DNA of 64,000 nt from Malacoraja senta (lineage: Eukaryota). The notes below the pieces were generated by a model. That model was not told where the DNA came from, made no database searches, and saw nothing but the letters and a program-made list of their open reading frames with translations. This document shows positions 1,480 through 62,412 of this stretch, piece by piece (within the stretch, counting starts at the first letter, position 1; the number at the start of each line of letters is the position of its first letter). The stretch spans positions 8,496,001-8,560,000 of the forward strand of contig CM075991.1 in NCBI GenBank assembly GCA_038087875.1, read 5' to 3'. The translations under genes and the position numbers were made by a program.

Positions 1480-1632
1480 ATTGACCCGTTGACTTCATCT
1501 ACACCTCACGCTGCCTCGGCAAGGCCAGCAGCATAATCAAAGATGAGTCGCACCCTGGCCACTCCTTCTTCTCCCCTCTCCCATCGAGCGGAAGGTACAG
1601 AAGTGTGAAAACGCTCACCTCCAGATTCAGTG
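1480..1632 (+). mobile_element. Rex1/Babar-like LINE fragment
   Basis: Encodes SIYTSRCLGKASSIIKDESHPGHSFFSPLPSSGRYRSVKTLTSRF; same subfamily as 53895-54077 (-). Confidence 0.75.
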
Positions 1633-1648
1633 TTTCAGAAGGAACTGC

Positions 1649-1788
1649 TGGGGTGGAAGATTGCAACCTTCACGTGGTCCGCCCTGTTTCGACTAATGCA
1701 ATCAACTCGACGTGCACAAACGGAAGATCAAATAGAACAAGTTGTCCAACAACTTTAGGCTGTGCACGCCACACGAAAGAAGAAGAAG
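1649..1788 (+). mobile_element. ~140-nt non-tRNA short retroposon with HDV-like ribozyme head and (GAA)n tail
   Basis: 13-bp TSD CAGAAGGAACTGC (1636-1648, 1789-1801); AAGAAGAAGAAG tail; a second copy with the same 5' boundary at ~62267-62412; inserted in a Penelope terminus. Confidence 0.85.
1650..1703 (+). ncRNA. Minimal HDV-like (CPEB3-type) self-cleaving ribozyme motif
   Basis: P1 GGGGTGG/CCGCCCT (G.U first pair), P2 GATTGCA/TGCAATC, P3 ACC/GGT, L3 TTCACGT, vestigial P4 (T-TTCG-A), J4/2 CTAA with putative catalytic C1693. Confidence 0.8.
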
Positions 1789-1914
1789 CAGAAGGAACTG
1801 CAGATGCTGGAACAATCGAAGGTAGACAAAAAATGCTGGAGAAACTCAGCGGGTGAGGCAGCATTCCGCCTCCAGATTCAGGGACAATTTCTTCCCAACT
1901 GTTCTCAGGCAACT

Positions 1915-20504: not shown

Positions 20505-20645
20505 TGTGTGTGTGTGTGTGTGTGTGTGCATGTGTGTGTGTGTGTGTGTGTGTGTGGGCATGTGTGTGTGTGTGTGTGGGCATGTGTGTGTGTGTGTGTG
20601 TGTGTGTGTGGTTGTGTCTATGTGCATATGTGTGTTTGTATGTAT
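20093..20645. repeat. Imperfect (GT)n microsatellite
   Basis: Direct reading. Confidence 0.97.
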
Positions 20646-20914
20646 TGGGTCAGGTCGGGGACAGTTCCCCCCCCCCCCCCCGCCACGGGTACCGTGTAAT
20701 CCCGTGCTACCTGCTCCATGGTCGGATAGTCGGCGACTAAACCGTCTCCCCCACCTGGTTTGCCAGGTGAGGAGGGGGCTGTGGACCCCCAGCAGGACCA
20801 AAAACAAGACCCGTCAAAGGGCGGATGAGCTTCTAGTGAGCCAACGGCCATCCACACTTCAGTAGAAGTTGCGATCACTGTCGTACATAGCATGGTAAGG
20901 AATGATGATTCCAC

Positions 20915-62266: not shown

Positions 62267-62412
62267 CCTTCTTCCTCCTCTTGCGTATGGCGTGCACAGC
62301 CTAAAGTTGTAGGACAACCTGTTCTATTTGATCTTATTTGATTGTGCACGCCGGGTTGATTGCATTCGTCGAAACAGGGCGGACCACGTGAAGGTTGCAA
62401 TCTCCCACCCCA
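62267..62412 (-). mobile_element. Second copy of the HDV-ribozyme-headed short retroposon
   Basis: Reverse complement aligns end to end with 1649-1788; tail AAGAGGAGGAAGAAGG. Confidence 0.85.
62358..62411 (-). ncRNA. Minimal HDV-like ribozyme motif with canonical CGAA J4/2
   Basis: GGGGTGG-GA-GATTGCA-ACC-TTCACGT-GGT-CCGCCCT-GTTTCGA-CGAA-TGCAATC. Confidence 0.82.

What the first reader, a model, noticed from the sequence alone, without database searches (positions are those of the whole stretch)
1649..1788. A 140-nt retroposon whose head is a minimal HDV/CPEB3-like ribozyme
Seen: nt 1650-1703 parse fully as the HDV nested double pseudoknot: P1 GGGGTGG(1650-56)/CCGCCCT(1679-85) with a G.U first pair, P2 GATTGCA/TGCAATC, P3 ACC/GGT, L3 TTCACGT, G1686 for a one-pair P1.1, almost no P4, and J4/2 C1693-TAA. 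The predicted scissile bond (5' of G1650) lies one base inside the left copy of a 13-bp TSD. There are no pol III A/B boxes and no ORF. Known: UUCACGU is the L3 of the mammalian CPEB3 ribozyme, and HDV-like ribozymes form the 5' ends of R2 and some RTE retrotransposon RNAs. Inference: a promoterless SINE-like element that cuts itself out of read-through transcripts and borrows a LINE RT, possibly RTE given the (GAA)n tail. I do not know of such a family described in cartilaginous fish, but cannot check.
Basis: partly seen in the sequence, partly recalled or inferred. Interest (0 to 1): 0.92.

Follow-up and report, generated by a model that had tools for sequence, protein, structure and literature searches.

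The report
Short retroposon headed by HDV-like ribozyme
A 140-base mobile element present in thousands of copies starts exactly at the predicted cut site of a very small self-cutting RNA of the hepatitis-delta type, a known trick of jumping genes seen here in an unusually small form and not yet tested at the bench.

Summary
Window 1650-1788 is one copy of a young, abundant non-coding retroposon. Its 5' 23-mer occurs 5,463 times in the 1.94-Gb genome, and 32 of the 40 scored hits are 100% identical to the window copy. Copies have 7-15 bp target-site duplications, an (AAG)n tail and a TY|A target preference.

Of 4,227 Rfam families, only the two HDV models align to it, end to end but far below their cut-offs. 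A generic HDV descriptor matches both window copies, 0 of 43,891 shuffles at nt 1, and 0 of 30 shuffled windows at P2 >= 7. The duplications abut G1, the predicted cleavage product end. Three subfamilies keep the head, changing only three fold-neutral positions, while the body diverges.

Not shown:
- self-cleavage;
- covariation, because the copies are too alike;
- expression;
- read-through transcription;
- the LINE partner. None shares the head or tail, and the RTE guess has no support.

Ribozyme-headed non-autonomous retroposons are already known (NARTc, R2 SIDEs, bipartite RTE derivatives). This is a new member or variant. It stands out for a P4-less ribozyme and a CPEB3-type core.

The parts
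1636..1648 (+). left copy of the 13-bp target-site duplication (cagaaggaactgc)
   Evidence: Identical to 1789-1801. Among 63 distinct full-length copies, 49 have a duplication of 7-15 bp, median 12.
1649..1649 (+). one extra T between the duplication and G1. It is not part of the element.
   Evidence: The downstream duplicate is followed by A, not T. T stands at -1 in 2,970 of 5,463 genomic copies, 54%, against 26.7% T in the window. It is an untemplated single T in 6 of 49 copies and part of the duplication in 30 of the 36 copies whose duplication abuts G1.
1650..1703 (+). 54-nt minimal HDV-like ribozyme candidate. P1 1650-56/1679-85; J1/2 1657-58; P2 1659-65/1697-1703; P3 1666-68/1676-78; L3 1669-75; P1.1 C1671-G1686 (plus U1670.U1687); linker 1687-92 in place of P4; catalytic C1693; J4/2 1693-96. 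The predicted cleavage is 5' of G1650.
   Evidence: Descriptor and shuffles. In-register end-to-end alignments to RF02682 and RF00094. Across three subfamily consensuses only positions 8, 32 and 45 change. Activity was not tested.
1704..1776 (+). non-coding body: linker AACTCGACGTGCAC, a long-range stem CGTGCACA 1711-1718 / TGTGCACG 1761-1768, and a 3' hairpin AAGTTGT 1739-45 / ACAACTT 1749-55
   Evidence: The stems appear in the ViennaRNA centroid. The GTGCAC...GTGCACGCC module is kept in subfamilies Y, O and S, while the middle, including the hairpin, is replaced in S. Any role in RT recognition is inferred.
1777..1788 (+). (AAG)4 microsatellite tail
   Evidence: The repeat number varies between copies.
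1789..1801 (+). right copy of the target-site duplication
62271..62411 (-). second, older copy (subfamily O), 89% identical to the first. Its head differs only at A8G and U45G.

Best explanation
Window 1650-1788 is a copy of a very young, abundant, ORF-less non-LTR retroposon of about 125-140 nt. Its RNA is copied into new sites by the endonuclease and reverse transcriptase of some LINE, through target-primed reverse transcription that starts on the (AAG)n tail.

Its first 54 nt fold into a P4-less (minimal) HDV-like double-pseudoknot ribozyme. The ribozyme cuts the transcript immediately 5' of G1, so any longer transcript that contains a copy yields an RNA starting at the element's first base. 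Full-length cDNA then gives insertions whose target-site duplication abuts G1.

Shown here:
- the family and its copy number;
- its youth;
- the duplications and the TY|A target preference;
- the uniform 5' end;
- the fit of the fold;
- conservation of the head across subfamilies.

Inferred:
- catalysis;
- that the source transcripts are read-through or host co-transcripts rather than products of an internal promoter;
- the RT source;
- that the GTGCAC stem plus tail is the RT recognition module.
For: Family and mobility.
- 1,412 first-look candidates; of the 40 scored, 32 are 100% and 8 are 99% identical.
- The 5' 23-mer occurs 5,463 times and a 3'-side 19-mer 5,722 times, with 0 in the reversed controls. 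Nearly all copies are therefore full length.
- 49 of 63 distinct copies have a 7-15 bp duplication. It abuts G1 in 36 and is separated by 1-3 extra nt in 13.
- Target consensus: T at -2 in 32 of 49, Y at -1 in 45 of 49, A at +1 in 38 of 49.
- Some 5'-truncated copies exist: L046, L049, L051.

Fold.
- All helices and junctions are present.
- The descriptor hits only the two copies in 64 kb, apart from one microsatellite artefact.
- Shuffled windows: 0 of 30 at P2 >= 7, and 3 sites in all at P2 >= 5.
- 0 of 43,891 element shuffles match at nt 1.
- Of 4,227 Rfam models, only two HDV models align, from first to last model position, with cleavage between 1649 and 1650.

Conservation.
- The Y and O consensuses differ at 2 of 54 head positions and 12 of 76 body positions, Fisher p = 0.042.
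- Subfamily S (21 loci) keeps the head with G8, A32 and U45 but has a different middle.
- The three variable head positions are J1/2, a U.G to U-A change inside P1, and the N of J4/2.
- In contigs of four runs from four coded organisms, the only head variants at >= 10% are 1681 G>A and 1694 T>G/A.

Other points.
- P4-less HDV-like ribozymes are active in vitro (passages of PMC10879173).
- No pol III-type head was found.
Against: - No cleavage data exist.
- Rfam scores are far below gathering (16.0 against 44; 14.1 against 50), and nothing in the window reaches any gathering score.
- There is no covariation. On 56 heads (48 distinct), 95.0% of cells pair, the same as shuffled partners (95.0 +/- 0.1; 257 of 500 shuffles reach it). 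There is one double change, reached by 204 of 500 shuffles.
- Nested-structure free energy is no better than shuffles: head z = -0.04, with 93 of 200 shuffles folding as well; whole element z = 0.17. ViennaRNA cannot score the pseudoknots.
- Within subfamily O, non-CpG divergence is 2.5% in the head and 3.2% in the body, p = 0.12. Copies decay neutrally and do not inform on constraint.
- The Y/O contrast rests on two consensuses and p = 0.04.
- The descriptor was written post hoc.
- The excess of T at -1 (54%) leaves room for some RNAs that start one base upstream.
- The variant table from contigs misses the known A/G difference at 1657, so it is incomplete near the 5' end.
- P1.1 has a single G-C pair, and P4 is reduced to a 6-nt linker.
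Confidence: 0.7

Rival explanations
1. An ordinary SINE with an internal promoter (pol III or other). The uniform 5' end would be a transcription start, and the HDV-like fold would be coincidental or non-catalytic.
For: - A uniform 5' end is also what a fixed start site gives.
- There is no TTTT inside the element.
- There is no covariation.
- MFE is no better than shuffles.
- Weak box-like strings with 3 mismatches each lie at +5 and +37.
- Earlier notes of this scan on other genomes found similar 'ribozyme head' claims to be chance.
Against: - With proper spacing, the A/B boxes show 8 mismatches, no better than 77% of 2,000 random 140-mers from the window.
- ARAGORN finds no tRNA.
- No tRNA, 5S, 7SL or snRNA family appears even at E <= 10.
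- A full HDV descriptor starting exactly at nt 1 was seen in 0 of 43,891 shuffles.
Confidence: 0.12
2. A bipartite (internally deleted) non-autonomous derivative of a ribozyme-headed LINE, such as RTE. Head and tail would both be borrowed from a partner that is rare, extinct, unassembled or diverged in this genome.
For: - Bipartite ORF-less non-autonomous LINEs are reported for RTE, Ingi, Vingi and R2 and usually keep the LINE's 5' end. A ribozyme is proposed as the reason (section 23 of PMC5786205).
- The head/body/tail layout fits that description.
Against: - There is no abundant second context for the 27-nt tail block: 35 hits, and the 10 loci inspected were SINE variants.
- For the 16-nt tail block, 75 hits gave only subfamily S and deletion variants.
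- The terminal 21-mer gave 5 hits.
- Head patterns gave 32 and 125 hits. Those inspected were SINE copies with small indels, or duplicated loci.
- Nothing LINE-like turned up in 275 kb by blastn-short.
- These were exact-pattern scans, so a partner diverged by a few percent would be missed.
Confidence: 0.3
3. A dual-function head like Pr77 of L1Tc/NARTc: the same 54 nt would act both as an internal promoter at the DNA level and as a ribozyme at the RNA level.
For: - The precedent is in print (abstract of PMC3383444).
- It would explain how thousands of copies, many identical, arose without depending on neighbouring promoters.
Against: No promoter motif was tested or found here, and the trypanosomatid precedent is phylogenetically remote.
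Confidence: 0.1

Closest known systems
NARTc / L1Tc (Trypanosoma cruzi) and R2 SIDEs (Drosophila): non-autonomous non-LTR retroposons with an HDV-like ribozyme at the 5' end
   Same: Short, ORF-less elements whose first nucleotides form an HDV-like ribozyme. The ribozyme releases the element RNA from a co-transcript, and a LINE mobilises the element (abstracts of PMC3383444, PMC3185411, PMC3414825; passages of PMC6765202).
   Different: Those elements share head and tail with an identified autonomous partner, and none was found here. R2 SIDEs are specific for an rDNA site, whereas this family is dispersed with variable duplications. Their ribozymes, as I recall, have a P4, whereas this one has a 6-nt linker. 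The host here is a vertebrate-type genome.
Bipartite ORF-absent non-autonomous LINEs of the RTE clade (e.g. WALLSI3, RTESINE2)
   Same: Head plus tail without an ORF, probably transcribed by pol II or as a co-transcript. The 5' end is retained, possibly because of a ribozyme (section 23 of PMC5786205).
   Different: Membership needs a matching RTE, and none was found. The (AAG)n tail is not diagnostic of RTE. A review gives the Rex3 tail as (GAA)2 plus GATG/GATC repeats.
Mammalian CPEB3 ribozyme (RF00622)
   Same: L3 UUCACGU lies at nt 20-26 from the cleavage site in both. The mouse primer that starts 18 nt from the site reads G-TTCACGT-CGC. P1.1 is one G-C pair plus a U-U pair, and J4/2 is a 4-nt linker starting with the catalytic C followed by G, A, A (C57, G58, A59, A60; passages of PMC4836649). 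Subfamily O has CGAA here.
   Different: CPEB3 is a single-copy intronic ribozyme of mammals with a P4 hairpin. Here there are thousands of dispersed copies and no P4. The Rfam CPEB3 model gives no match at E <= 10. Four free loop positions agreeing could be convergence.
Minimal (P4-less) HDV-like ribozymes: drz-Mtgn and theta ribozymes
   Same: A double pseudoknot without the P4 domain. Such ribozymes are shown active in vitro (passages of PMC10879173).
   Different: Nearly 99% of those lie in Caudoviricetes phages, often just 3' of tRNA genes. That paper's eukaryotic search covered human, mouse and protists only. Here the ribozyme heads a eukaryotic retroposon.
Classical SINEs (tRNA-, 7SL- or 5S-derived head, LINE-derived tail)
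   Same: The size, copy number, duplications, microsatellite tail and dependence on a LINE.
   Different: No small-RNA-derived head and no A/B boxes were found.

Membership tests
HDV-like (delta-like) self-cleaving ribozymes | Nested double pseudoknot: P1 (7 bp), P2, P3 (3 bp), L3, P1.1, with P1' directly after P3' | tested here: met
   Direct reading. The descriptor is matched only by the two copies in the window, apart from one microsatellite artefact. It is rare in shuffles.
HDV-like (delta-like) self-cleaving ribozymes | Catalytic cytosine at the start of J4/2 and a G.U wobble closing P1 at the cleavage site | tested here: met
   C1693-UAA aligns with the models' GCuAA. G1650.U1685 is the first P1 pair.
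HDV-like (delta-like) self-cleaving ribozymes | Score at or above the gathering threshold of an Rfam HDV-type model | tested here: not met
   RF02682 scores 16.0 against 44 and RF00094 scores 14.1 against 50. The window has no gathering-level match. The models do not score P2 or P1.1, and they penalise the missing P4.
HDV-like (delta-like) self-cleaving ribozymes | Helices supported by covariation | tested here: inconclusive
   48 distinct heads are 96% alike. Paired cells are 95.0%, equal to shuffles, with one double change. Between subfamilies there is only the U.G to U-A change at pair 5-32.
HDV-like (delta-like) self-cleaving ribozymes | Site-specific self-scission that gives a 5'-OH product and is abolished by mutating the catalytic C | not testable with these tools
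   Needs a bench assay.
CPEB3 ribozyme family (RF00622) | Match to the family model, and a location in the CPEB3 intron of mammals | tested here: not met
   No RF00622 match at E <= 10. The element is dispersed in 5,463 or more copies. Only L3, P1.1 and J4/2 agree.
Minimal / theta HDV-like ribozymes | P4 domain absent | tested here: met
   Six nt (1687-1692) lie between G1686 and C1693. The models' P4 is replaced by 5 nt in both alignments.
Minimal / theta HDV-like ribozymes | Phage context, cleavage at a tRNA 3' end | tested here: not met
   No tRNA lies nearby. The context is a eukaryotic repeat.
LINE-mobilised non-autonomous retroposons (SINE in the broad sense) | Dispersed copies with variable target-site duplications, a 3' repeat tail, no ORF, and a target-site preference | tested here: met
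Bipartite non-autonomous LINE / SIDE | 5' and 3' ends shared with an autonomous LINE of the same genome | tested here: not met
   Exact-pattern scans for the head or tail in a non-SINE context found only SINE variants or duplicated loci. Nothing turned up in 275 kb by blastn-short. Diverged partners would escape these scans.
Classical pol III SINE | Head derived from tRNA, 7SL or 5S, with A and B boxes | tested here: not met

The most novel reading that the evidence does not exclude
This would be a free-standing 'ribozyme SINE'. A P4-less, 54-nt HDV-like ribozyme with a CPEB3-type core would be the only head this currently active vertebrate retroposon needs. It would not be inherited from any LINE in the genome. 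It would let a promoterless 140-nt RNA carve itself out of any host transcript and hitch-hike on an unrelated LINE through its (AAG)n tail. Such elements would be the kind of source from which single-copy genomic ribozymes such as mammalian CPEB3 were exapted.
Probability: 0.2. Interest if true: 0.75.

Novelty: new variant of a known kind. Interest (0 to 1): 0.5.

Why it matters
If the head cleaves, this would be among the smallest natural HDV-like ribozymes. It would also be a eukaryotic home for the P4-less 'minimal' form, which a 2024 paper found almost only in gut phages after searching, among eukaryotes, only human, mouse and protists (passages).

It would add a vertebrate family that looks recently active to the short list of ribozyme-headed non-autonomous retroposons. 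Many copies are identical, which gives a clean system for asking how a promoterless RNA becomes a retrotransposition template.

The CPEB3-type loop, P1.1 and J4/2 bear on where single-copy genomic HDV-like ribozymes come from, but this is a lead and not evidence of descent.

If the head does not cleave, this is an ordinary abundant SINE.

Tried and rejected
- RNA evidence: no RNA holder listed. All four runs that I laid are contigs of uncertain kind, so starts, strands and levels cannot be read. The low-cover bin 1635-1643 is not used as evidence.
- Partner LINE: six pattern scans of the genome, four small fetches and two local BLAST or repeat scans found none.
- A scan for other (GAA/AAG)n-tailed repeats in 275 kb gave 15 arrays, none resembling the tail.
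- RTE link through Rex3: I recalled the Rex3 tail as (GAA)n. The review gives (GAA)2 plus GATG/GATC repeats.
- Covariation among genomic copies: uninformative.
- Nested MFE z-scores: uninformative.
- Rfam RF00094 over the genome, looking for ribozyme-headed LINEs, gave only one unrelated single-copy candidate. Only 84 of 38,783 candidates were scored.
- L055 and L067 first looked 5'-truncated but are copies interrupted by another repeat.
- The four C1242 hits and the pair L075/L076 are duplicated loci, not a new element.
- Literature:
  - The element's 22-mer occurs in 0 papers.
  - 12 papers hold 'HDV-like ribozyme', SINE and retrotransposon. By title and abstract start, none describes a vertebrate SINE-like element with such a head.
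  - 17 papers hold five related terms.
  - A loose search that added shark and skate terms listed 20 of 1,938 papers, none with any ribozyme term, so it says little.
  - Ruminski et al. 2011 (PMC3308841) is not held.
  - Repbase and Dfam cannot be searched here, so prior description of this family as a repeat cannot be excluded.
- Earlier notes of this scan: none on this sequence.

Full report
WHAT IS THERE

From G1650 the helices and junctions are:
- P1: GGGGTGG 1650-56 pairs with CCGCCCT 1679-85, and the first pair is a G.U.
- J1/2: AA.
- P2: GATTGCA 1659-65 pairs with TGCAATC 1697-1703.
- P3: ACC 1666-68 pairs with GGT 1676-78.
- L3: TTCACGT 1669-75.
- G1686 can pair with C1671. U1687 lies opposite U1670.
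- Six nucleotides stand in place of P4.
- J4/2: C1693-TAA.

The 13-bp duplication cagaaggaactgc flanks the element at 1636-48 and 1789-1801, with one extra T at 1649. The element ends in (AAG)4. It sits nested inside other repeats.

IS IT MORE THAN CHANCE?

- A generic HDV-like descriptor that I wrote requires a 7-bp P1, a P2 of at least 5 bp, a 3-bp P3, a 7-8 nt L3 with C at its third place, G after P1', and C-N-R-A before P2'. In the 64-kb window it finds the element at 1650, a second copy at 62411 (minus strand), and one (GT)n artefact with a 5-bp P2.
- Thirty dinucleotide shuffles of the window gave 3 start sites in all, and none with P2 >= 7.
- Of 43,891 shuffles of the element itself, 2 matched anywhere and none matched at nt 1.
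- The descriptor was written after I had seen the sequence. The independent check is Rfam. On 1646-1708, only two of 4,227 models give E <= 10: RF02682 (16.0 bits) and RF00094 (14.1 bits). Both are HDV ribozyme models. Both align from first to last model position in the same register, with the models' P4 replaced by 5 nt.
- Both scores are far below gathering (44 and 50), and nothing in the window reaches any gathering score.
- Free energy of nested structures does not stand out: head z = -0.04, whole element z = 0.17. The program cannot score pseudoknots.

THE FAMILY

- The window's own genome is 1.94 Gb. It gave 1,412 first-look candidates. Of the 40 scored, 32 are 100% and 8 are 99% identical to the window copy.
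- The 5' 23-mer GGGGTGGNAGATTGCAACCTTCA occurs 5,463 times. A 3'-side 19-mer occurs 5,722 times. The reversed controls gave none. Almost all copies therefore reach the 5' end.
- There are three subfamilies:
  - Y (the window copy);
  - O (the second window copy; 180 candidates, 40 scored at 94-100%);
  - S (about 124 nt; consensus from 21 loci).
- Among 63 distinct full-length copies, 49 have a duplication of 7-15 bp (median 12). It abuts G1 in 36 and is separated by 1-3 extra nucleotides in 13, six of these being a single T.
- The base before G1 is T in 2,970 of 5,463 copies (54%), against 26.7% T in the window. It is not fixed, so the element starts at G1.
- The T excess may reflect the target, or an untemplated A on the cDNA. 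That is my inference.
- Targets show T at -2 (32 of 49), a pyrimidine at -1 (45 of 49) and A at +1 (38 of 49). This is the signature of an endonuclease nick followed by priming on the (AAG)n tail.
- A few copies are 5'-truncated: L046, L049, L051.
- Contigs of four public runs from four coded organisms cover the element. They have loose ends of low agreement before 1649 and behind 1788.

CONSTRAINT ON THE HEAD

- Genomic copies decay neutrally. Within O, non-CpG divergence is 2.5% in the head and 3.2% in the body (p = 0.12).
- The pair counts on 56 heads (48 distinct) equal the shuffled control: 95.0% paired, with one double change. Covariation is therefore not shown.
- The informative comparison is between the source lineages. 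The Y and O consensuses differ at 2 of 54 head positions and 12 of 76 body positions (Fisher p = 0.042).
- S keeps the head but replaces the middle of the body, including the 3' hairpin.
- The only head positions that differ among the three consensuses are:
  - position 8, in J1/2;
  - position 32, where U5.G32 becomes U5-A32;
  - position 45, the variable base of J4/2.
  None of these harms the fold.
- In the four runs, the only head variants at >= 10% are these same positions 32 and 45. That table misses position 8, so it is incomplete near the 5' end.

WHAT IT IS NOT

- ARAGORN finds no tRNA.
- No small-RNA family appears even at E <= 10.
- A and B boxes with proper spacing are no better than in 77% of random 140-mers.
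- There is no meaningful ORF.

THE PARTNER

- Exact-pattern scans asked for the head or the tail in any non-SINE context. They returned only SINE copies with small indels, subfamily S, or duplicated loci. BLAST of the body against the 275 kb held found nothing else.
- The RTE suggestion therefore has no support. A review gives the Rex3 tail as (GAA)2 followed by GATG/GATC repeats (passages of PMC6274825).
- A diverged, rare or unassembled partner would have escaped these scans.

HOW IT MOST LIKELY WORKS

A transcript that runs through a copy folds its first 54 nt into the double pseudoknot and cuts 5' of G1. The released RNA is recognised through its 3' module. That module is a GTGCAC...GTGCACGCC stem kept in all three subfamilies, followed by (AAG)n. 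The RNA is then reverse-transcribed at a TY|A nick, and full-length cDNA gives a duplication that abuts G1.

- Shown: the genomic signatures.
- Inferred: the cleavage, the source of transcription and the RT.
- I put 0.7 on a working ribozyme that defines the 5' end.

COMPARISON WITH WHAT IS KNOWN

- HDV-like ribozymes head R2, RTE, L1Tc and other LINEs. They also head non-autonomous derivatives: NARTc, R2 SIDEs and bipartite RTE-derived elements (abstracts; section 23 of PMC5786205; passages of PMC6765202). The kind is known.
- What differs here:
  - P4 is absent. That form is shown active in vitro, but a 2024 study found it almost only in phages (passages of PMC10879173).
  - The whole element is very small.
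  - No partner shares head or tail.
  - The core is like the CPEB3 ribozyme. L3 is identical and lies at the same distance from the cleavage site (primer in PMC10919898). P1.1 is one G-C pair plus a U-U pair, and J4/2 begins C-G-A-A (PMC4836649; subfamily O has CGAA).
- The Rfam CPEB3 model does not match, so the element is not a member of that family.
- No paper holds the element's 22-mer.
- Repbase and Dfam could not be checked.

VERDICT

- It is a new variant (at least a new member) of a known kind.
- Interest is 0.5, pending a cleavage assay.

Noticed in passing
L077 3153..3071 (-) = G000:C1:320228970-320229052: A second, unrelated HDV-like ribozyme candidate with a full P4. RF00094 scores 43.8 bits (gathering 50; E 1.1e-05 locally), from model position 1 to 89. 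RF02682 scores 21.8 bits. It is single copy in the genome, and no long ORF follows it on that strand. Only 84 of 38,783 first-look candidates were scored, so there may be others.
   Followed up: partly
L071-L074, L078-L094: Subfamily S of the retroposon, about 124 nt. It has the same head, linker and tail, but the middle is replaced (AAATAGATGTAGTGTTTTGT) and the 3' hairpin is absent. That hairpin is therefore not required for mobility.
   Followed up: partly
L055 1480-1873 and L067 1252-1556: Two copies at different loci are interrupted at the same position (about nt 90) by the same repeat of about 250 nt. This is either a composite that was itself copied or an insertion hot spot.
   Followed up: no
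window 1500-1630 and 1870-1990; window 1631-1648 and 1789-1870: The element lies inside another short repeat (gaaggaactgcagatgctgg...). That repeat is itself inserted, with a duplicated cctccagattcag, into the 3' part of an abundant LINE-like repeat. These are nested insertions three deep.
   Followed up: no
window 1649 and genome-wide: T precedes G1 in 54% of 5,463 copies, sometimes as an untemplated extra base. This suggests addition of a non-templated A to the cDNA end, or a preference at the second-strand joint.
   Followed up: partly
window 20596-20745: A (GT)n microsatellite passes a loose HDV descriptor through G.U pairs. This is a reminder that such descriptors need a P2 of at least 7 bp or a limit on wobble pairs.
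   Followed up: yes
L075 and L076 (G000:C9:24867850-24868850; C2167:30680-31720): A 973-nt stretch is 100% identical on two contigs, probably an assembly duplicate. It carries a copy whose head is followed directly by unrelated AT-rich sequence.
   Followed up: partly
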